Source of the DNA: Candidatus Pacearchaeota archaeon
Lineage (GTDB): Archaea; Nanobdellota; Nanobdellia; UBA10117; JAFCGA01
Assembly: GCA_017608345.1 (NCBI GenBank)
Contig: JAFCGA010000001.1
Coordinates: 97,766 to 161,765, forward strand
Length of the DNA: 64,000 nucleotides
Reading direction: 5' to 3'
The stretch's first letter is position 1; each line of letters starts with the position of its first letter. A model generated the notes under the pieces. It saw only the letters and a list, made by a program, of their open reading frames with translations, did not search any database and was not told the DNA's origin. Position numbers and translations under genes: made by a program. Shown one piece after another: positions 1,627 through 49,363 of the stretch.

Positions 1627-2595
1627 ATGACAGAAAACACACCTGAACCGCCAGCGTTAGGAGACTTATTTAAGAAAGGTGCTGGGAAGGTCAAGGAAAG
1701 ATTCATGCTATTAAGACCGCTCTCTAAGAAAGAGCAGTGGAGCGTTGACTCACTTAAGGAGTATATTTCTGAAGATAGTGCTAAAAAAGCGCTAGCGGCA
1801 GTCAAACAAAATAAGGCTGAGCTCAAATATATCAAGAAAGGTTTTTCATTTCTAATCGCTAATAAAGATTTAATACCTCAGCTAGATTCCGGAGAATTTG
1901 AAGATCTAAACAAGCAGATCGAGAAGGAATTCTATGCTACTAGCTTCAAAAACTTCGCGGAGCGGGCTTGGGGTGCCCTTCCGCAATACATCGGACCAAA
2001 TACATTAGGGCAGACCGAGATAAAGCAAGCGATTACTTTGCAGCTTTTCTCGCCTGAGCCAATTAAACTGCTGATACTGGGCAAGATAAACGCTGAGATG
2101 CTGACTTTTGCTAGGAAATTAGCGCCACCGGAGTTTCAGATCATTACGAACTTCTCACCAGAGAAGGAGCTAGATTTTGAGAAACCAATAATCACTAAAA
2201 CAGATAGGCAGACAAAACACTCAGACAAATTCGACCTGTTGTTCTTTACGAAAACCGCAGTGCTAAAAGACTTCGAAGATATTGCTGAGAAGATCATTAC
2301 TGGTAGCAAGGCCAAAGTCAAAGATGCGGATCTAGAATTCTTAAAAGAGTATATTGAGCAGGCTCGAGAGATCGAGGTGGAAATACCTGCGCACTTAGTT
2401 GAGCAATTAAAGAAGTTCATAGTTAAGCTAAAAAAAGAAGAATCAGAACTCAACTATTCTGTAACAACTGACTTCGTAGCTGTGGTGGTTAGCTTATGCA
2501 AAGCTGCTGCTCGGATGGAAATGCGGTCTCAGATAGATTCTAAGGACTTGGTAAGAGTTTTTGATATTGTTGAGAAATCGATTAGGGCAGAGTAA
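1627..2595 (+). CDS. MCM-derived protein lacking the ATPase core (degenerate Walker A; no Walker B or arginine finger recognisable)
   Basis: These blocks align with MCM: IGPNTLGQTEIKQAITLQLF (MCM IxGxxxxKxAxxLxLFGG), KLLILGKINAEMLTFARKLAPP (MCM hhLhGDPGTAKSxhLxxhxxhAPR with GDPGTAKS lost), KFDLLFF (SRFDLIF), LKEYIEQAR, and SVTTDFVAVVVSLCKAAARMEMRSQIDSKDLVRVFDIV (the lid helix ITxRQLEALIRLSEAxAKMxL...). Confidence 0.55.
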   Translation: MTENTPEPPALGDLFKKGAGKVKERFMLLRPLSKKEQWSVDSLKEYISEDSAKKALAAVKQNKAELKYIKKGFSFLIANKDLIPQLDSGEFEDLNKQIEKEFYATSFKNFAERAWGALPQYIGPNTLGQTEIKQAITLQLFSPEPIKLLILGKINAEMLTFARKLAPPEFQIITNFSPEKELDFEKPIITKTDRQTKHSDKFDLLFFTKTAVLKDFEDIAEKIITGSKAKVKDADLEFLKEYIEQAREIEVEIPAHLVEQLKKFIVKLKKEESELNYSVTTDFVAVVVSLCKAAARMEMRSQIDSKDLVRVFDIVEKSIRAE

Positions 2596-2647
2596 GCTTT
2601 ACAGAAACTTTAAATGCTTTTCCAACGATTCTACTTCAGTGATATTT

Positions 2648-3022
2648 ATGGGTATAGAAGATAATATGGTTGGAGGGATTATTATTGCAGGTAATCCTCC
2701 GAATAGCGATAGTTATACAATTATAGCTAAAGTAAGAAAAGGGTACTGGGCAGATAGTCAAAAAAGAATGCTGGGTATGGATCCAATTAAACGGATAAGC
2801 GTACTCATAGATATTATGAATTATTCAGATAGAGTTCTTTTTCCTGAGAGAAATCTATTAACTACACCAGAAATAAAGCATACTTTTAATTCTGCGAATA
2901 TACGCTACGAGGACATCAAAGATAAGTATGGGGAGAGCACCGTTATTGTCAATAAGAGCTTAGTAGGTTTGATACTCCCGCTTTCTCGAGGGGAATCTCA
3001 ACAATCAGATCGAGACCAATAG
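2648..3022 (+). CDS. hypothetical protein (124 aa from the ATG at 2648)
   Basis: The ORF 2561-3022 overlaps the end of the upstream gene. The first ATG at 2648 lies ~35 nt downstream of AAACTTTAAATGC. Confidence 0.4.
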   Translation: MGIEDNMVGGIIIAGNPPNSDSYTIIAKVRKGYWADSQKRMLGMDPIKRISVLIDIMNYSDRVLFPERNLLTTPEIKHTFNSANIRYEDIKDKYGESTVIVNKSLVGLILPLSRGESQQSDRDQ

Positions 3023-3030
3023 AATATTTT

Positions 3031-3162
3031 CTAATTGACTATCGCCCGAGCAATCGGTTTTATCTGCGCTACTACAAATCCAATTAGCTCTTTAGTCTGC
3101 GGTGTGAAATAATAAAGACCAAGGATTACAATGAATAGAATTATTATTATGAACCATTTCAT
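3031..3162 (-). CDS. possible small membrane protein (43 aa, MKWFIIIILFIVILGLYYFTPQTKELIGFVVAQIKPIARAIVN)
   Basis: An unlisted short ORF read by hand, with one strongly hydrophobic helix. Support is only ORF integrity. Confidence 0.2.
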   Translation of the reverse strand: MKWFIIIILFIVILGLYYFTPQTKELIGFVVAQIKPIARAIVN

Positions 3163-3200
3163 ACTGGACAAATAGATAACTAAGATATAAAAAGGTTCTT

Positions 3201-3255
3201 AACCAGAAATTAAAAATTTCTGGAGTAAAACTTACTTACGTAAGTTTTATAAATC
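3201..3255 (+). promoter_or_regulatory. copy 1 of a ~55-bp promoter/hairpin module (CCAGAAAT-N5-ATTTCTGG, AAAACTTAC-TTAC-GTAAGTTTT, TTTATAAATC) upstream of hicB
   Basis: It is a direct repeat of 3758-3812. The TATA-like TTTATAAA ends ~22 nt before the hicB ATG at 3276. Confidence 0.6.
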
Positions 3256-3275
3256 TCTAAAACGCTTAGAATAAT

Positions 3276-3545
3276 ATGGCAAAGGCAAGATTTTCTAAGA
3301 ACGGAATTACATTTAACGCTGATGTATATCCCGATGAGGACGGCTTTTTTGTAGCTCGTTGTGTCCAGCTAGATATAGCTAGCCAAGGAAAAACAGTAGA
3401 CGAAGCTATTGAAAACCTAAAAGAAGCTACTGAACTATATTTAGATGCTTATCCGGAAAAAGCTGCGTTAGGAAATCGTTTCTTTGTAAGCGCTACATTT
3501 GAGGTTCTCCAGAATGCCAAAATTACCCCTCCTGTCAGGGCATAA
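3276..3545 (+). CDS. hicB: HicB-family antitoxin (UPF0150-like)
   Basis: FNADVYPDEDGFFVARCVQLDIASQGKTVDEAIENLKEATELYLD fits the HicB N-terminal fold signature. It overlaps the downstream hicA. Confidence 0.7.
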   Translation: MAKARFSKNGITFNADVYPDEDGFFVARCVQLDIASQGKTVDEAIENLKEATELYLDAYPEKAALGNRFFVSATFEVLQNAKITPPVRA

Positions 3546-3747
3546 ACTAGTAAAACTGCTCGTTAACACTGCTGGATTCAAGATAATTAGACATAAGAAA
3601 GGTAGCCATACGATTCTTGAGAAGCGCGAGGAGGGTAAAGTAATAAGTACGGTTGTGCCCTTGCATCCCACTCTCGGACGCGGTATTCTACGAGAGATAA
3701 TTAAACAATGCAAGATGACTCGAGAAGAGTTCTTCGAACTAATTTAA
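3514..3747 (+). CDS. hicA: HicA-family mRNA interferase toxin
   Basis: MPKLPLLSGHKLVKLL..GFKIIRHKKGSHTILEK...VVPLHPTLGRGILREIIKQCKMTREEFFELI carries the YcfA/HicA hallmarks (GSH, VPxH, G..r.Ilkq). The ATG at 3514 overlaps hicB by 32 nt. Confidence 0.75.
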   Translation: MPKLPLLSGHKLVKLLVNTAGFKIIRHKKGSHTILEKREEGKVISTVVPLHPTLGRGILREIIKQCKMTREEFFELI

Positions 3748-3757
3748 TAACTTTTAT

Positions 3758-3812
3758 AACCAGAAATCAAAGATTTCCGGAATAAAATTCGCTGTCGCAA
3801 GTTTTATAAATC
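3758..3812 (+). promoter_or_regulatory. copy 2 of the ~55-bp promoter/hairpin module, upstream of the SRP RNA
   Basis: AACCAGAAATCAAAGATTTCCGGAATAAAATTCGCTGTCGCAAGTTTTATAAATC aligns to 3201-3255. The TATA ends ~20 nt before the GGGCTAGG RNA start. Confidence 0.6.
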
Positions 3813-3831
3813 AAAATTCTATTGTTTCTAT

Positions 3832-4080
3832 GGGCTAGGCTGGCCGGTGCAGGTGCGCGGCTGTTACCTGAAATCGTCTTTACAGGGGCCGAAAAGCTGG
3901 GGGCGGCATTGCTATTATTTGCTGTCCTGATTGTTAGCGTCGAAGCATCGCCTTCAGGGGTGTTATGTTCATATGAATCTGGTCAGACCTTGACGGGAGC
4001 AGCCATAGTGTGCTCATGGTGTGCTCTGGAGATACGGTGTGGAGCTGGCTTTTGGGGTTAGCAGTAAGTGATGGTTTTTT
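3832..4080 (+). ncRNA. signal recognition particle RNA (archaeal 7S/SRP RNA), ends approximate
   Basis: A GC-rich island in an AT-rich genome with its own TATA box at about -25 and a terminal T6 run. It contains UGGUCAGACCUUGACGGGAGCAGCCAUAG, which matches the universally conserved helix-8 core (compare E. coli 4.5S AGGUCAGGUCCGGAAGGAAGCAGCCAAGG). The 5' GGGCUAGGCUGGCC can pair with the 3' GCUGGCUUUUGGGGUUAGC. Confidence 0.65.
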
Positions 4081-4101
4081 CAACCTCAGTGACGCCCACT
4101 T

Positions 4102-5609: not shown

Positions 5610-6113
5610 TTAGAAGTTGCTTATAAAGTCCTCTGAAGCTTTCTTAGCAGTCTCAATCTCTGCGTATAATCTCCTAAAACGTTCTGCATTAGAATGTGGA
5701 ACTGCGAAGTACTCGATTGGAGAATGAATAAGTGGCTCGAGATTTCTTAATAAACCTACTCTCTCTGAAAATCCTTCAATACTCTTAATACGACCAAAAG
5801 TATAGCTGCTATTCGAATTTTGGTAGAGATCGGCCCGTATAAATGCTTTATCTTCAGCTGGATGAGCTATTCCTTTCATCTTAACCGAGCGGCCTTGGAG
5901 AAGATCGGTGAGTTTTCCTTCTTCGAGTATGCCAATAAACGTCTGGCGATCCGGTACGGGAGTATCACCATACTTGAACTGGAGAGTCTTCTGGTCGGGA
6001 TCCATCTTCGGGTCATTATTTGTGATTATATATTCCTGACCCTCCAGTTTTACAATATATATAATGCGATCTGTCCGAGCTCTAAAATCTACGATCTCTA
6101 TTTCAGGTGCCAT
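5610..6113 (-). CDS. hypothetical protein (167 aa)
   Basis: Last gene of a tightly packed four-gene minus-strand string (7584 down to 5610). Confidence 0.5.
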   Translation of the reverse strand: MAPEIEIVDFRARTDRIIYIVKLEGQEYIITNNDPKMDPDQKTLQFKYGDTPVPDRQTFIGILEEGKLTDLLQGRSVKMKGIAHPAEDKAFIRADLYQNSNSSYTFGRIKSIEGFSERVGLLRNLEPLIHSPIEYFAVPHSNAERFRRLYAEIETAKKASEDFISNF

Positions 6114-7584: not shown

Positions 7585-7675
7585 TCAGTTTTCTTATCTC
7601 TTGTATATATAAATATTATTATTTTTCAGGAGCTAAAACTCCACAGCTTGCAGTGGTTTCTCGGAAAAATAATTA

Positions 7676-7700
7676 CAGAAATTAGTCTCAGGAATTTCTG
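7676..7700. promoter_or_regulatory. inverted repeat CAGAAATT-N9-AATTTCTG, related to the hairpins at 3203-3223 and 3760-3780
   Basis: Perfect 8-bp arms between two minus-strand genes. It uses the same half-site as the hicB/SRP promoter modules. Confidence 0.35.
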
Positions 7701-7748
7701 TTTATTATCTTTGTAACAACCGAATATAATCTATCACTTTAAGAGCTA

Positions 7749-26274: not shown

Positions 26275-26853
26275 ATGGGACTTATAAATAAAATCCAATT
26301 ATACCTTACTAAGAGAAGAGCAGAGCCCGCAAAAAATATTCATAGAAAAGCGCTAGAGCCAAAATGGAAATTAAGGACATACAAATTGGACGAAAAAATT
26401 GACGAAGAGATCCTACAAGAAGTTGGACAACTTGAAATGACTCTTATGATGAATATCGCAAGAGGATTAGATAGTGAAGTAGACGGCGATATAGTCGTTA
26501 AAGTTGCAAGTATAAGAAATCATGATGAATATGTAAATGAAAAGCATCTTATTTGGGTCGCAGAAAGATATACGACCGAAGGACAAACTATCGATTTACT
26601 CTTAACGCAAATATCAAAAGATTCTCACGGCATAACAAGTTTCGACGCTACAAGCTGGTCTAGGAACTTTGACGCCGGTGCTTTAATGGAAAAAGGTAAG
26701 TTCTTGACAGCATATAAAGAAACTGATGCTATAAATGCAAGGAATAAGCAGATAAAAGCAAATCTAAACCTTAACTTCGGATATGGCAAAGGTTGCTTTC
26801 CGGCATGTCCATATCAAGATGTATCAAGAAGTGCTGTCTTAGGGCGGGCTTGA
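26275..26853 (+). CDS. hypothetical protein (192 aa)
   Basis: ORF only. Confidence 0.4.
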   Translation: MGLINKIQLYLTKRRAEPAKNIHRKALEPKWKLRTYKLDEKIDEEILQEVGQLEMTLMMNIARGLDSEVDGDIVVKVASIRNHDEYVNEKHLIWVAERYTTEGQTIDLLLTQISKDSHGITSFDATSWSRNFDAGALMEKGKFLTAYKETDAINARNKQIKANLNLNFGYGKGCFPACPYQDVSRSAVLGRA

Positions 26854-33150: not shown

Positions 33151-34011
33151 TTACCTAAGCTCAATATAATTAGTTGTTCCATGCGGGATTCGCTTAATAA
33201 CACCGCGCTCTTCGAGATGTCTGAGAACCCTACTTAGTTTAGCTTTTGAGAAGTCGACTTGCTTTTCAATTTGCTTCTGTCTTATTGGCTCCTTATACTG
33301 CTTAATTATATCTACAACTCGCGCTTCATCACCGAGCAGTCTGACTTTTGGTTTAGACTTGCGTCTCAATTTCTTTCGGTAAAATATGTATGTGGGTGGG
33401 ATAAGCAATAGCAAAAGCAGAATATACCAATAATTTACTTGCTGGGCTTGCTCATAAATAGCAGAAACTTCGAAATCTCTACTCAGATTTTCCCGCTCAA
33501 AAAGGAGAATTATTCTGCGACCATCTGAGTAAACGCTCGTAGGCTCGGGAGTTACATATTTATTTATATCTTCAGAGATTATAACATATCCTTCAGGCAA
33601 TTTTAAGCGGAATCTAAGTTCTTCTGTTTCGAAGTTGAATCTAATAGTCTGTTTGAATATTCTCTTATTGTGCAACGGTACAACCGGGTACTCCGTCTTA
33701 AAACTCGCTGTTATAAAGTAGTCTGAGTCTATTCCTGCTAGCGGACAGGTGATTTTAGTAGCGCCCCTGATGAGTTCCTGCTCGCAAGATGTGGCTCGGT
33801 CGTTGATTTTTAGGTCTAGCTCCTCAATGTCTGGCGGCAAGAAAAGAATTATCTTTCTCCCGCTATCATATTTAACAAATATTTCTAGCTGCTCGCTAGC
33901 AATACCTTTATCTAGAACTGCCTCTAAGTCATAAGAATAAAATTCTAAAGCCGAGGCAGCAGGTATCAATACCAACATCAGGAAAAATATAGCTAAGCGC
34001 CGAATGAACAT
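33151..34011 (-). CDS. membrane-spanning protein with an extracellular N-domain and a cytoplasmic C-terminal winged-helix DNA-binding domain
   Basis: It has a signal or TM segment at the N-terminus, a TM helix WYILLLLLLIPPTYIFY, then VVDIIKQYKEPIRQKQIEKQVDFSKAKLSRVLRHLEERGVIKRIPHGTTNYIEL (MarR/TrmB-like wHTH). Confidence 0.55.
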   Translation of the reverse strand: MFIRRLAIFFLMLVLIPAASALEFYSYDLEAVLDKGIASEQLEIFVKYDSGRKIILFLPPDIEELDLKINDRATSCEQELIRGATKITCPLAGIDSDYFITASFKTEYPVVPLHNKRIFKQTIRFNFETEELRFRLKLPEGYVIISEDINKYVTPEPTSVYSDGRRIILLFERENLSRDFEVSAIYEQAQQVNYWYILLLLLLIPPTYIFYRKKLRRKSKPKVRLLGDEARVVDIIKQYKEPIRQKQIEKQVDFSKAKLSRVLRHLEERGVIKRIPHGTTNYIELR

Positions 34012-47125: not shown

Positions 47126-49363
47126 ATGAAAAAGCTAATTTTCCTAATAATAGCAGCTATGCTTTGCTTTAGCGTTGCTACTGCTGATGAAATTATAGAT
47201 GCAGATGGCGATGGCATTCCTAACGAAATTGATAATTGTGTAAGCATCCCAAACGAAGATCAGGCAGACGCCGATGGAGATGGCGTTGGTGATGTCTGTG
47301 ATACTTGTCCGGGATCAGATGATAGAAATGATAAGGATAATGATAATATCCCCGATGGATGTGATGCAGAGGCTTGCGGAGCAAATGCGGAATTAAAAAC
47401 TGTCGAAGGAGATATTTGGTGTGAATGCATCGACGACTACGAAGACGCTAATGGGGATCAATATGATGGCTGTGAAGTAGATACTCAAACTGATTATATT
47501 GTCGTAGATAATAATTGGATAGAAGCAGATTATAACGAAGGCGATAAAATAGTCATCGGAAATTCAGAATACTTCTTTGATTATAATGCTTTTACATCTA
47601 TCGAAGACGCAATTGATGCGGCAAACGAAGAAGAATTTGCACTTGATGCTCAAGTAGAACCCGTACCTGGAGACGGAGATTTCACGAGAAGTACTATCTA
47701 TGTTTATGAAGGTACTTATGAAGGATATAGCATAGGCATTGGAAAGAGTGTAGAAATAATTGGAGAAAATAAAGACACAACTATAATTAATGATCCTGAC
47801 TGCGGTAATGTTTTCGACATATTCCCAGATGGAGAGGTTCCAATCGCAGTAGCTCTTAGTGGCTTCACTCTTTCGGGCAATAACTGGATGGGTACAGAGG
47901 AGGACGAGACATATGCTATCTATGTAGATTCTGTAAGCAATATTGAATTGAATAATCTGATATTCACCAATGCGCAGAGGTATTACAACATATACATCAC
48001 GGATACGCTAGCAGGAACTATCGAAAATAGTGAAATAAGCAACGCATGTAGTGGAATCTATATCGAACAATCAAGCAATATAATTGTTCAAGATAATACT
48101 ATTGATTCAAACGGAGATGGAGAAATGTGCGGTGGAGACACTGGAGTAGACATCATAACTTCTAGCAATGTAAATTTACTTAGAAACACAATAATTGACA
48201 ACAACGGTGGAGTTAAAGTTGATGAGATTCAAGTCCCAGACGGCGGTGACGTTTTTAATCAGATGATCGAATGCAGTATTGACATCACACTTCTAGATAA
48301 TATAATTACTGGGAATTCAGGATACGGAGTTGCTTCTACCTGTGGTCAAACAGACGCAAGATTAAACTACTGGGGATCAGTAGATGGACCGAGCAGAGAT
48401 GGGACAGAAACCGATGGAGATTCAATAATTGGGGATGTACTATACTCCCCATGGTTTACTTCTGAAGACCTTAATTCAATCTTAGCTGAATCTGACTTAA
48501 ACGGAGAAACTAACATGCGAAGCATAACCGTTCCGGAATTAGAATTCTCAATTGGTGAAAATATATTAGTGGAGATACAAGACGGAACCACTATAAGTGG
48601 AGATACAGATCTATGGGATGGAACATTCAACTCGCCGGAGCTAGCAGAGAGCGCAGCAACAGCTCCTCCGACAACTGCAGGGTATACTAACTCGGTTGAT
48701 AATATAATTGAGATTGGTTTCCCAACTGCTAAACTTCTATTGAACAAAGCTGCAAAAATAACTCTTAGCGGAGTAACTGGAAGATTAATCGGATACACCC
48801 GAGCTGGAGAAGACTTCACTAAGATAACAACTCTATGTAAGGCTATCGATGACTCAAGCAATATAGATGGAAATGGAGATTGCTATTTCGACGATGGAAC
48901 TAACACAGTTATTTGGACTAAGCACTTCACTCAGTTTGTAACTTACACGCAGAGCGCTCTTCCAGCAGATCCAGCACCGACAATCACCAGTGGAAGATCT
49001 AGCAGCGGTTGTAGTCCGCTCTGGACTTGCGGAACTTGGTCAGATTGTACTAATGGAATCAAAACAAGACACTGTGATATCGTAAGAACCTGCGGCACAG
49101 CAGGACCAGAAACAACAAAAACTTGTGATATTCCGTTGATAGCTACATCTAGCGAGCCAGTTCAAGAAAAAGAACTAGAGCAAGTCAAATCTGACTTAAA
49201 CAATACTAAAAGCAATCGATTAGAAACCGGAAGCTTAGGAGTCGGACAAGCGACTAGCTTCATGGACGGACTCAGAGAAAGATGGTGGGCAATATTAGTA
49301 TTCCTTGGAATATTTGGATTACTAGCAGGTTTTGGGTTCAAGACTAAGAAGCAGAAGAAGTAA
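47126..49363 (+). CDS. surface protein: TSP type-3-like Ca-binding repeats, parallel beta-helix region, six-Cys module and C-terminal TM anchor
   Basis: A signal peptide precedes DADGDGIPNEIDNCVSIPNEDQADADGDGVGDVCDTC. Then come repetitive NosD/pectate-lyase-like I-x-N/G turns, CSPLWTCGTWSDCTNGIKTRHCDIVRTCGTAGPETTKTC, and ...LRERWWAILVFLGIFGLLAGFGFKTKKQKK. A GAGGT SD site lies 10 nt upstream. Confidence 0.7.
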   Translation: MKKLIFLIIAAMLCFSVATADEIIDADGDGIPNEIDNCVSIPNEDQADADGDGVGDVCDTCPGSDDRNDKDNDNIPDGCDAEACGANAELKTVEGDIWCECIDDYEDANGDQYDGCEVDTQTDYIVVDNNWIEADYNEGDKIVIGNSEYFFDYNAFTSIEDAIDAANEEEFALDAQVEPVPGDGDFTRSTIYVYEGTYEGYSIGIGKSVEIIGENKDTTIINDPDCGNVFDIFPDGEVPIAVALSGFTLSGNNWMGTEEDETYAIYVDSVSNIELNNLIFTNAQRYYNIYITDTLAGTIENSEISNACSGIYIEQSSNIIVQDNTIDSNGDGEMCGGDTGVDIITSSNVNLLRNTIIDNNGGVKVDEIQVPDGGDVFNQMIECSIDITLLDNIITGNSGYGVASTCGQTDARLNYWGSVDGPSRDGTETDGDSIIGDVLYSPWFTSEDLNSILAESDLNGETNMRSITVPELEFSIGENILVEIQDGTTISGDTDLWDGTFNSPELAESAATAPPTTAGYTNSVDNIIEIGFPTAKLLLNKAAKITLSGVTGRLIGYTRAGEDFTKITTLCKAIDDSSNIDGNGDCYFDDGTNTVIWTKHFTQFVTYTQSALPADPAPTITSGRSSSGCSPLWTCGTWSDCTNGIKTRHCDIVRTCGTAGPETTKTCDIPLIATSSEPVQEKELEQVKSDLNNTKSNRLETGSLGVGQATSFMDGLRERWWAILVFLGIFGLLAGFGFKTKKQKK

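What the first reader, a model, noticed from the sequence alone, without database searches (positions are those of the whole stretch)
3201..3832. hicBA toxin-antitoxin cassette bracketed by a duplicated ~55-bp promoter/hairpin module that also drives the SRP RNA
Seen: 3201-3255 and 3758-3812 are direct repeats. Each contains AACCAGAAAT-N5-ATTTC(T/C)GG, a second hairpin, and GTAAGTTTTATAAATC or GCAAGTTTTATAAATC. Copy 1 puts its TATA ~22 nt before the hicB ATG, giving a leaderless mRNA. Copy 2 puts it ~20 nt before the first G of the SRP RNA. Deleting one repeat plus hicBA would leave a normal SRP RNA promoter. Inference: hicBA inserted into, or recombined at, the SRP RNA promoter and duplicated it. 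The TA pair thereby acquired a strong RNA-gene promoter and its palindromic operator-like sites. Alternatively, both are co-regulated by a factor that binds CCAGAAAT/ATTTCTGG.
Basis: partly seen in the sequence, partly recalled or inferred. Interest (0 to 1): 0.6.

Follow-up and report, generated by a model that had tools for sequence, protein, structure and literature searches.

The report
hicBA cassette between two hairpin promoter modules
In a tiny DPANN (Woesearchaeota-like) archaeon, a toxin-antitoxin gene pair has been inserted in front of the signal-recognition-particle RNA gene, and both are preceded by a copy of a double-hairpin promoter unit that this genome also uses at ribosomal-protein, tRNA and other housekeeping genes.

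Summary
Positions 3185-3255 and 3742-3812 are a 71-nt direct repeat (77% identity; 81% over the 57-nt core). Each copy has two hairpins and a TTTTATAAA box, 22 nt before the hicB ATG and 21 nt before the SRP RNA. The SRP RNA is real (95 bits, E 4e-22, 1.5 bits below Rfam's cut-off). HicA is clear and HicB is supported by homologues.

The two nearest relatives keep the same neighbourhood but have a plain promoter, no hicBA and no module, so hicBA is an insertion. However, the module is not an SRP-specific promoter. The genome holds 15 units at 10 loci, alone or in tandem arrays: S12, SecE-NusG, the L3 leader, ProRS, two tRNA loci (one read by eye only), DnaG, UvrA, SRP RNA and hicBA. The hairpin stems covary.

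The hicB and SRP copies are far more alike than neighbouring units in arrays (81% against 55-63%). That favours duplication at insertion. The SRP copy is nevertheless closer still to a SecE unit (88%). Toxin-antitoxin cassettes in two other Woesearchaeota contigs are also bracketed by promoter-containing repeats. What the hairpins do is unknown. No transcript data could be obtained.

The parts
3031..3171 (-). Divergent 46-aa small membrane-like ORF. It is conserved next to the SRP RNA gene in relative L033. Its own TATA box (AGATATAAAAA on the + strand, 3183-3193) anchors the comparison with the relative.
   Evidence: ORF list. L033 has the matching 47-aa ORF at 5826-5969 on the minus strand, with the same AGATATAAAAA about 20 nt from its start. 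No Pfam match.
3196..3202 (+). Degenerate TATA-like box TTCTTAA, directly 5' of module copy 1. It sits where relative L033 has its SRP RNA TATA box (TCTTTTTAAAGG).
   Evidence: Sequences. The genome-wide promoter consensus is (C)TTTT(T)AA at -29/-30. Treating this box as homologous to the relative's TATA box is an inference from position only.
3201..3255 (+). Promoter module copy 1. Hairpin A: 3203-3210 with 3216-3223. Inverted TATA-like AGTAAAAC: 3224-3231. Hairpin B: 3226-3235 with 3240-3249. TATA box TTTTATAAA: 3245-3253, ending 22 nt before the hicB ATG.
   Evidence: Covariance model R1 scores 76.5 bits, E 4e-10.
3276..3545 (+). hicB antitoxin, 89 aa. Probably translated from a leaderless mRNA. 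No recognisable DNA-binding domain.
   Evidence: Homologues named HicB family. BLASTP E 4e-11 to the L033 HicB-like protein. Pfam DUF7387 at 22.6 bits, below the cut-off. Weak match to PDB 2YZT, E 0.02.
3514..3747 (+). hicA toxin, 77 aa. Overlaps hicB by 32 nt. Contains the KKGSH motif.
   Evidence: Pfam PF07927 at 48.4 bits against a cut-off of 27. 41% identity to the L033 HicA. One of three HicA genes in the genome.
3752..3759 (+). TTTTATAA box 4 nt after the hicA stop codon, directly 5' of module copy 2. It has the same 8-mer as the box at 3245-3252 on the other side of hicBA.
   Evidence: Read.
3758..3812 (+). Promoter module copy 2. Hairpin A: 3760-3767 with 3773-3780 (one A-C mismatch). 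Inverted TATA-like AATAAAAT. Imperfect hairpin B: 3784-3792 with 3797-3805. TATA box TTTTATAAA: 3802-3810, ending 21 nt before the SRP RNA.
   Evidence: R1 scores 73.5 bits, E 1.4e-9. 88% identical to unit 4 of the SecE array.
3832..4101 (+). Compact archaeal SRP (7S) RNA gene, about 270 nt.
   Evidence: Rfam RF01857 at 95.0 bits (gathering score 96.5), E 4.2e-22, full model, 3828-4101. The first 54 nt (3832-3885) are identical to the SRP RNA of L034.

Best explanation
A self-contained hicBA type II toxin-antitoxin cassette was inserted between a small divergent gene and the SRP RNA gene.

Both transcription units now start from one unit each of a roughly 57-nt promoter module. The module runs: hairpin A (8-bp stem, conserved GAAAT-loop-ATTTC core); an inverted TATA-like AATAAAAC; hairpin B, whose 3' arm lies at the BRE position; and the box TTTTATAAA. 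TBP and TFB would bind that last box, and transcription would start 21-22 nt later. That would give a leaderless hicB-hicA mRNA (the genes overlap by 32 nt) and an SRP RNA transcript that begins at or near its mature 5' end.

The module is not special to this locus. It is a lineage-specific promoter type used at 10 loci in this genome, mostly for translation-apparatus genes.

The two flanking copies most likely arose when the cassette inserted into a module-type SRP promoter with a long target duplication, or by an equivalent recombination at the promoter. Later divergence and sequence exchange with other module copies would have followed.

Shown: the repeat, the hairpins and their covariation, the spacing, the dispersed family, and the absence of hicBA and module in relatives. 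Inferred: the transcription start points, the order of events, and any function of the hairpins.
For: - Repeat, hairpins and spacing.
- Genome-wide TATA position: TATA-like 8-mers peak at -29/-30 from the ATG across 706 ORFs, so leaderless mRNAs are the norm here and the hicB box fits.
- Dispersed family: 15 units at E below 1e-3, at 10 loci.
- Identities of the downstream genes: S12 and SecE; NusG and L11 after SecE; UvrA, DnaG and ProRS; tRNA-Gln.
- Spacing at other loci: at seven loci the last box ends 21-27 nt before the start codon or the RNA 5' end.
- Covariation: 89.5% of cells are paired, 10 of 18 pairs change on both sides, 0 of 500 shuffles reach the observed score, and slid controls give 27-54% paired.
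- Insertion: L033 and L034 keep MCM-lid ... SRP RNA with plain promoters and no hicBA, and no hicBA lies near SRP RNA at 32 other loci.
- Duplication: hicB and SRP units are 81% identical, against 55-63% for neighbouring units within arrays.
- Parallels: L033 hicBA is bracketed by a 31-nt repeat ending at the TATA box. The L048 MazE-PIN pair is bracketed by a repeat of about 50 nt. Three other single genes in this genome are bracketed by promoter duplications of 25-44 nt.
Against: - The SRP unit is closer to unit 4 of the SecE array (88%) than to the hicB unit (81%).
- Hairpin B plus TATA of the hicB unit is 26/26 identical to unit 3 at UvrA. High similarity between unlinked units therefore exists, and 81% between neighbours is not proof of local duplication.
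- The available empty sites (L033, L034) carry a plain promoter with no module. The repeat therefore cannot be aligned to a single target copy, which is the decisive feature of a target duplication.
- Three other hicBA loci (L051, L053, L055) and the two other hicBA pairs of this genome show no bracketing repeat.
Confidence: 0.55

Rival explanations
1. Pre-existing array or independent family members. The SRP RNA promoter already carried two tandem module units, as at S12, DnaG, UvrA and SecE. hicBA then landed at the internal TATA box and duplicated only about 8 nt (TTTTATAA on both sides). Alternatively, hicBA arrived with its own module-type promoter by recombination between dispersed module copies.
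For: Tandem arrays of 2-5 units exist at four other loci. TTTTATAA lies on both sides of hicBA, at 3245-3252 and 3752-3759. Hairpin B differs in type between the two copies, and each matches units elsewhere. In L048 the module lies inside the inserted segment, 5' of the toxin-antitoxin pair.
Against: Neighbouring units within arrays are only 55-63% identical, whereas the hicB and SRP units are 81% identical, among the four most similar of 91 pairs. No relative with a two-unit SRP promoter was found.
Confidence: 0.25
2. The module is a small mobile or copy-spreading element, similar to a MITE or REP element. It inserts at TATA boxes and brings a replacement BRE/TATA. Two copies bracketing hicBA would then act like a composite element, or hicBA would sit between two independent insertions.
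For: - The module is absent from the orthologous SRP promoters of the nearest relatives.
- The 43 nt available upstream of SecE in a relative with 86% NusG identity show no module, and a 73% relative has a plain promoter. The arrays therefore look recent.
- Among 300 other genomes of the class, only one has a match.
- Stems covary.
- The leftmost box of each array has the genome's usual TATA flavour (TCTTTTAA-like), while internal and last boxes have the module's own flavour (AAGTTTTATAA).
- Single units with the same core occur before different genes (L7Ae, L35Ae, a small basic protein, a MazE-PIN pair) in other Woesearchaeota.
Against: - Every unit points towards the downstream gene and ends at promoter distance from it.
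- The downstream genes are strongly enriched for translation and housekeeping functions. That fits a regulatory element better than random insertion.
- No Y1/RAYT transposase is present. There are only two tyrosine recombinases, which were not typed.
- Target duplications could not be defined, because the flanks are AT-rich and low in complexity.
Confidence: 0.15
3. Co-regulation. Hairpin A (core GAAATC-N3-GATTTC), hairpin B, or both, are binding sites of a transcription factor that controls a regulon of translation-apparatus genes. hicBA has joined this regulon.
For: The AAATCAAAGATTT core is conserved within the genome and in distant Woesearchaeota contigs. Targets are coherent: three ribosomal-protein operons, ProRS, tRNAs, SRP RNA and SecE-NusG. 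A hairpin-A-like palindrome also follows a TATA-like box before RNase Z-like, GluRS-like, CPSF-like and recombinase genes; these gene names are my reading of the translations, except the recombinase, which matches PF00589.
Against: Seven of the eight stem positions of hairpin A change on both sides while keeping pairing. That is the signature of a base-paired structure, not of a fixed protein-binding sequence. UvrA, DnaG and hicBA do not fit a translation regulon. This reading is compatible with the best explanation rather than opposed to it.
Confidence: 0.3
4. The similarity of the two copies is chance resemblance between AT-rich archaeal promoters.
For: The TATA and BRE parts are low in complexity. 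AAGTTTTATAAATC with up to two mismatches is only weakly enriched in the window (5 found, 2.1 expected).
Against: None is expected in shuffles for the hairpin A pattern. The repeat runs 71 nt at 77% identity. Covariance model scores are 73-76 bits.
Confidence: 0.01

Closest known systems
Insertion with long target duplication, described for restriction-modification gene units (Nobusato et al. 2000, as cited in Furuta, Abe and Kobayashi 2010, PMC2853133)
   Same: A small selfish gene unit with no recombinase of its own lies between direct repeats of tens of bases. Related genomes have the site without the insert. The downstream host gene keeps a working copy of the duplicated sequence.
   Different: The cargo here is a toxin-antitoxin pair in an archaeon, and the duplicated segment is a promoter. 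The repeats are only 77-81% identical. The empty sites of the available relatives do not contain the repeated sequence, so the defining alignment of repeat to single target could not be made.
hicAB/hicBA type II toxin-antitoxin systems (HicA mRNA interferase, HicB antitoxin)
   Same: A HicA domain with the GSH motif; a small HicB-like partner; overlapping genes in one operon.
   Different: HicB is short (89 aa) and has no recognisable HTH or RHH DNA-binding domain. Autoregulation through the palindromes is therefore unlikely (inference). The gene order is antitoxin first.
Archaeal BRE/TATA core promoters, and tandem promoters of stable-RNA operons (for example haloarchaeal rRNA operons; from my own knowledge, not checked here)
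   Same: A TATA box ends about 22 nt before the start. Mostly highly expressed translation genes and stable RNAs lie downstream. Promoter-like units are repeated in tandem.
   Different: Each unit carries two covarying hairpins and an inverted TATA-like box. The TATA flavour (AAGTTTTATAA) differs from the genome's usual (C)TTTTTAA. The orthologous promoters checked in close relatives (SRP RNA, SecE) lack the unit.
REP/BIME elements and MITEs of bacteria; integron attC sites
   Same: Short dispersed imperfect palindromes whose structure is better conserved than their sequence. They are often clustered in arrays and, in the case of attC, bracket cassettes that include toxin-antitoxin pairs.
   Different: - All units here sit at promoters in one orientation, not at gene 3' ends.
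- No Y1/RAYT transposase is present.
- The attC core sites RYYYAAC and GTTRRRY are not present as such (read).
- There are two separate hairpins rather than one long one.

Membership tests
HicA toxin (PF07927) | Match to the HicA domain above the curated cut-off | tested here: met
   48.4 bits against a cut-off of 27, residues 10-67. Also found by the whole-genome scan.
HicA toxin (PF07927) | Conserved Gly-Ser-His motif with the catalytic histidine (feature recalled from my own knowledge) | tested here: met
   RHKKGSHTIL is present in the translation.
HicB antitoxin | Match to a HicB-type domain model above the cut-off | tested here: not met
   Only DUF7387 at 22.6 bits against a cut-off of 27.9. 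No NCBIfam match.
HicB antitoxin | Homology to proteins annotated as HicB, and a position next to HicA | tested here: met
   149 homologues, many named HicB family antitoxin. E 4e-11 to the HicB-like protein (PF15919) of L033. Overlaps hicA by 32 nt.
Archaeal SRP RNA (RF01857) | Score at or above Rfam's gathering score | tested here: not met
   95.0 bits against 96.5. The shortfall is 1.5 bits; E 4.2e-22; full model length.
Archaeal SRP RNA (RF01857) | Full-length match with the conserved helix 8 strands, and orthologues in relatives | tested here: met
   Model positions 1-317 are aligned and AGCAGCC of helix 8 is present. 32 of 41 genomes searched (own genome included) have a match of similar length. 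The 5' end is near-identical in L034.
Insertion with long target duplication | Inserted genes flanked by direct repeats of tens of bases | tested here: met
   71 nt at 77% identity.
Insertion with long target duplication | The repeat aligns to a single copy at the empty site of a related genome | tested here: not met
   L033 and L034 have the empty site, but with a plain promoter and no module. These relatives may be too distant (68-69% protein identity).
REP/BIME with RAYT, or IS200/IS605-derived elements | A Y1 (HUH) transposase gene in the genome | tested here: not met
   PF01797: no match in the genome, which is 88% complete.
Integron attC site | Core sites RYYYAAC ... GTTRRRY and one long imperfect hairpin; an IntI integrase | tested here: not met
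   Unit ends read TTATAAC ... GTTTTAT, with two separate hairpins. There are two tyrosine recombinases, which were not typed.
Archaeal BRE/TATA promoter | TATA box at the distance from the start that is typical for this genome | tested here: met
   TATA-like 8-mers peak at -29/-30 across 706 ORFs. The hicB box starts at -31. Actual transcription starts were not testable.

The most novel reading that the evidence does not exclude
The double-hairpin unit may be a previously undescribed, promoter-restoring mini-element of Woesearchaeota. In this reading it copies itself into TATA boxes and brings its own BRE/TATA, so that the downstream gene stays expressed. Repeated insertion builds tandem arrays. 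Two copies can bracket and carry cargo such as hicBA. That would be a recombinase-less or trans-mobilised cassette system that uses promoters as docking sites.
Probability: 0.15. Interest if true: 0.8.

Novelty: new variant of a known kind. Interest (0 to 1): 0.45.

Why it matters
Two points matter here.

First, the locus shows how a bare toxin-antitoxin pair can settle in front of an essential RNA gene without harming it. The insertion leaves a working promoter on both sides, and the cassette gains a promoter of the type used by ribosomal-protein operons. This adds a promoter-level example to the 'insertion with long target duplication' pattern, which has been documented mainly for bacterial restriction-modification genes.

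Second, following up the repeat uncovered a lineage-specific promoter architecture. It consists of two covarying hairpins plus a distinct TATA flavour, often in tandem arrays, in front of translation-apparatus genes. I found no description of it, and it is absent from the orthologous promoters that could be checked in close relatives (SRP RNA, SecE). Very little is known about promoters of DPANN archaea. This module is a concrete object for in vitro transcription and binding experiments.

Tried and rejected
- The Rfam gathering-threshold scan of the window found nothing. The SRP RNA appeared only in the E-value search.
- My first regular-expression search for hairpin B failed because of a register error. 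I replaced it with nhmmer and a covariance model.
- A global alignment of the window's promoter region to L033 and L034 was uninformative, because the spacers are AT-rich. Only the anchor at the divergent gene's TATA box is usable.
- A strand-asymmetry test, counting G-T against A-C mismatches in the stems, gave no clear answer.
- HicB as the binder of the palindromes: rejected as unlikely. HicB has no DNA-binding domain, and the same palindromes occur at nine other promoters.
- The hairpins as terminators of upstream genes: rejected as a general explanation. Some units follow divergently transcribed genes (the intron-bearing tRNA locus), and the T runs are only four long.
- No Rfam family matches the 125-210 nt between the module and the gene at DnaG and at the L3 leader.
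- The whole genome of the relative behind L033 is not held, so its other promoters could not be checked.
- Two literature searches for DPANN or Woesearchaeota promoter elements returned nothing relevant.
No reads or transcript ends could be examined.
Full report
**1. The observation**

The window is part of contig C1 of a 1.05-Mb, 39% G+C archaeal genome, 88% complete. Notes from other agents and the record titles of related contigs place it among the DPANN / Woesearchaeota-like archaea.

- The repeat is real. Positions 3185-3255 and 3742-3812 match over 71 nt at 77% identity.
- Hairpin A, CCAGAAAT-N5-ATTTCYGG, occurs only at 3203-3223 and 3760-3780 in the window, with none expected by chance.
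- The 14-mer AAGTTTTATAAATC is identical in both copies.
- Copy 1 folds into two perfect hairpins (-14.4 kcal/mol as DNA, z -7.5). Copy 2 is degraded.
- The TATA box ends 22 nt before the hicB ATG and 21 nt before GGGCTAGG of the SRP RNA.

**2. The genes**

- The SRP RNA fails Rfam's gathering score by 1.5 bits (95.0 against 96.5), so the whole-window scan was empty. The match is full-length with E 4.2e-22.
- Of 41 genomes searched (the window's own plus 40 same-order or same-class relatives), 32 have an SRP RNA match of the same compact size.
- HicA is a clear PF07927 member.
- The upstream 89-aa protein has only a sub-threshold domain match. It does have about 150 homologues that their sources call HicB, and it overlaps hicA by 32 nt.
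- The genome holds two further hicBA pairs. Both have plain promoters.

**3. The module is a dispersed promoter type**

BLAST, nhmmer and a covariance model built from 14 units find 15 units (E below 1e-3) at 10 loci in this genome. The downstream genes are:

- hicB and the SRP RNA;
- the S12 operon;
- SecE, NusG and, by the gene order in relative L060, L11;
- the mini-ORF leader of the L3 operon;
- ProRS, DnaG and UvrA;
- tRNA-Gln;
- a probable intron-bearing tRNA. I read its acceptor-stem halves GCCCGTG ... CACGGGC and anticodon GTT by eye. Neither ARAGORN nor Rfam calls it.

Four loci carry tandem arrays of two to five units. All units point at the downstream gene. At seven loci the last box ends 21-27 nt before the start codon or RNA 5' end.

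In this genome TATA-like 8-mers peak at -29/-30 from the ATG, so mRNAs are mostly leaderless. The usual box is (C)TTTT(T)AA. The module's TTTTATAA is a minority flavour. The 16S rRNA promoter does not use the module.

**4. The hairpins covary**

On the 14-unit alignment, 89.5% of cells pair. Ten of 18 pairs change on both sides, including seven of the eight pairs in hairpin A. No shuffle out of 500 reaches the observed score. Sliding the partner columns drops pairing to 27-54%. The sequences are related and the structure was derived from them, so this is strong but not formal proof. The centre of hairpin A (AAATCAAAGATTT) is conserved. The outer stem varies with compensating changes.

**5. Distribution**

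With the covariance model, only one of 38 other genomes in the order, and one of 300 in the class, has a match. That genome is G023, with two weaker single units.

An exact-pattern scan of public genomes and metagenomes found three more single units with the same core. They lie before L7Ae, L35Ae and a MazE-PIN toxin-antitoxin pair.

**6. Is hicBA an insertion?**

The MCM-lid protein gene 0.7 kb upstream has relatives at 68-69% identity on two contigs. Both contigs keep the SRP RNA downstream.

- In L033 the order is MCM-lid, a 47-aa divergent ORF (the counterpart of window 3031-3171), then a plain promoter (TCTTTTTAAAGG) and the SRP RNA 62 nt from the ORF start. In the window that distance is 660 nt.
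- In L034 a radical SAM gene lies in between, and the promoter is again plain.
- Neither contig has hicBA or a module at the SRP locus.
- None of 32 SRP loci from other genomes or contigs has hicBA within 1.5 kb.

So hicBA and both module units are specific to this lineage. The 43 nt available upstream of SecE in a relative with 86% NusG identity show no module, and a 73% relative has a plain promoter. The arrays therefore appear to be recent.

**7. How did the two copies arise?**

The hicB and SRP units are 81% identical, among the four closest of 91 unit pairs. Neighbouring units inside arrays are only 55-63% identical. That favours duplication at insertion over a pre-existing array.

Against a simple duplication:

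- The SRP unit is 88% identical to SecE unit 4.
- Hairpin B plus TATA of the hicB unit is identical over 26 nt to UvrA unit 3.

Units therefore exchange sequence or are copied between loci.

Independent parallels for duplication:

- In L033 a different hicBA pair (38-41% identity) at another locus is bracketed by a 31-nt repeat (29/31). The repeat contains the last five codons of the upstream gene and ends at the TATA box.
- In L048 the segment [module + MazE-PIN pair] is bracketed by a repeat of about 50 nt that ends in a TATA-like box.
- In this genome three other single genes are bracketed by 25-44-nt promoter duplications. One is a perfect 44-mer that includes the first four codons.
- Three other hicBA loci show no such bracket.

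Earlier agents of this scan reported the same footprint around toxin-antitoxin cassettes in other DPANN genomes. I treat those notes as leads that agree with my result, not as evidence. The closest published concept is 'insertion with long target duplication' of restriction-modification units (PMC2853133). Its defining test, alignment of the repeat to a single copy at the empty site, could not be met with the relatives available.

**8. What the hairpins do remains open**

- A fixed-sequence operator is unlikely, because the stems covary.
- HicB has no DNA-binding domain.
- A terminator role does not fit units that follow divergent genes.
- A regulatory role is suggested by the conserved core and by the coherent set of translation genes.
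- A copy-spreading element is suggested by the lineage-specific and recent distribution, and by the native-type degenerate box at the left end of each array. However, there is no Y1 transposase, and target duplications cannot be defined.
- A hairpin-A-like palindrome directly after a TATA-like box, followed by a second hairpin that abuts the ATG, also precedes RNase Z-like, GluRS-like, CPSF-like and small tyrosine recombinase genes. The first three names are my reading of the translations.

**9. Verdict**

Noticed in passing
G000 contig C14, about 33680-33745 (minus strand), outside the window: In unit 2 of the SecE promoter array, hairpin A is split by an insert of about 58 nt (CCAGAGAAAAACACTAGGTGTTTTTCTTGTCCAAGAAAAAGCTTTGCTTTTTCTCTGG). 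The insert is itself two nested hairpins. It looks like the purine/pyrimidine hairpin elements that other agents reported in this genome's tRNA and rRNA introns.
   Followed up: partly
window 3972-3996 (helix 8 of the SRP RNA): The apical loop of helix 8 reads CCUUGACGG, whereas the relatives L033 and L034 have the usual GGAA-type loop (GGGGAACC, CGGGAACG). The SRP RNA of L033 also carries an extra stretch of about 56 nt in helix 5 (L033 6140-6200).
   Followed up: no
window 7675-7701; also G000 C10:114286 and C11:42233: A second palindrome family, ACAGAAATT-N7-9-AATTTCTGT, with three copies in the genome. One copy lies directly after a stop codon. It may be a terminator-like or regulatory hairpin.
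   Followed up: no
G000 C12:25809-25852 and 26547-26590; C7:32559-32590 and 33725-33756; C1:48152-48176 and 48846-48870 (outside the window): Single genes are bracketed by duplicated promoters: a C39-like peptidase, an HhH-GPD glycosylase and an unknown protein. The C12 repeat is a perfect 44-mer that includes the first four codons (MEIK) of both genes.
   Followed up: partly
G000 C2:145161-145230, C1:8962-9030, C6:46303-46360, C2:13739-13800, C1:176590-176697, C1:63402-63510: A recurrent 5' arrangement: TATA-like box, hairpin CCAAAAATC-loop-GATTTTTGG, a second hairpin TTGTAAATC-loop-GATTCACA, then the ATG directly. It precedes RNase Z-like, GluRS-like, CPSF-like, nucleotidyltransferase-like and small tyrosine recombinase genes (names read from the translations, except the recombinase, which matches PF00589).
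   Followed up: partly
G000 C2:87750-88000 (upstream of the 16S rRNA gene): The rRNA promoter is of the plain type (AAAGATTTTTAAAGG). It is preceded by two copies of a 28-nt direct repeat, AATAACCAAAATACGCCTTCAGTCAGACC.
   Followed up: no
window 2561-3022: A 153-aa ORF with no Pfam match lies between the MCM-lid gene and the small divergent ORF. It has no counterpart at this position in L033, so it may be another lineage-specific insertion.
   Followed up: no
whole genome G000: ARAGORN finds only 8-13 tRNA genes in 1.05 Mb. Most tRNA genes appear to be split by introns, as other agents have noted.
   Followed up: no
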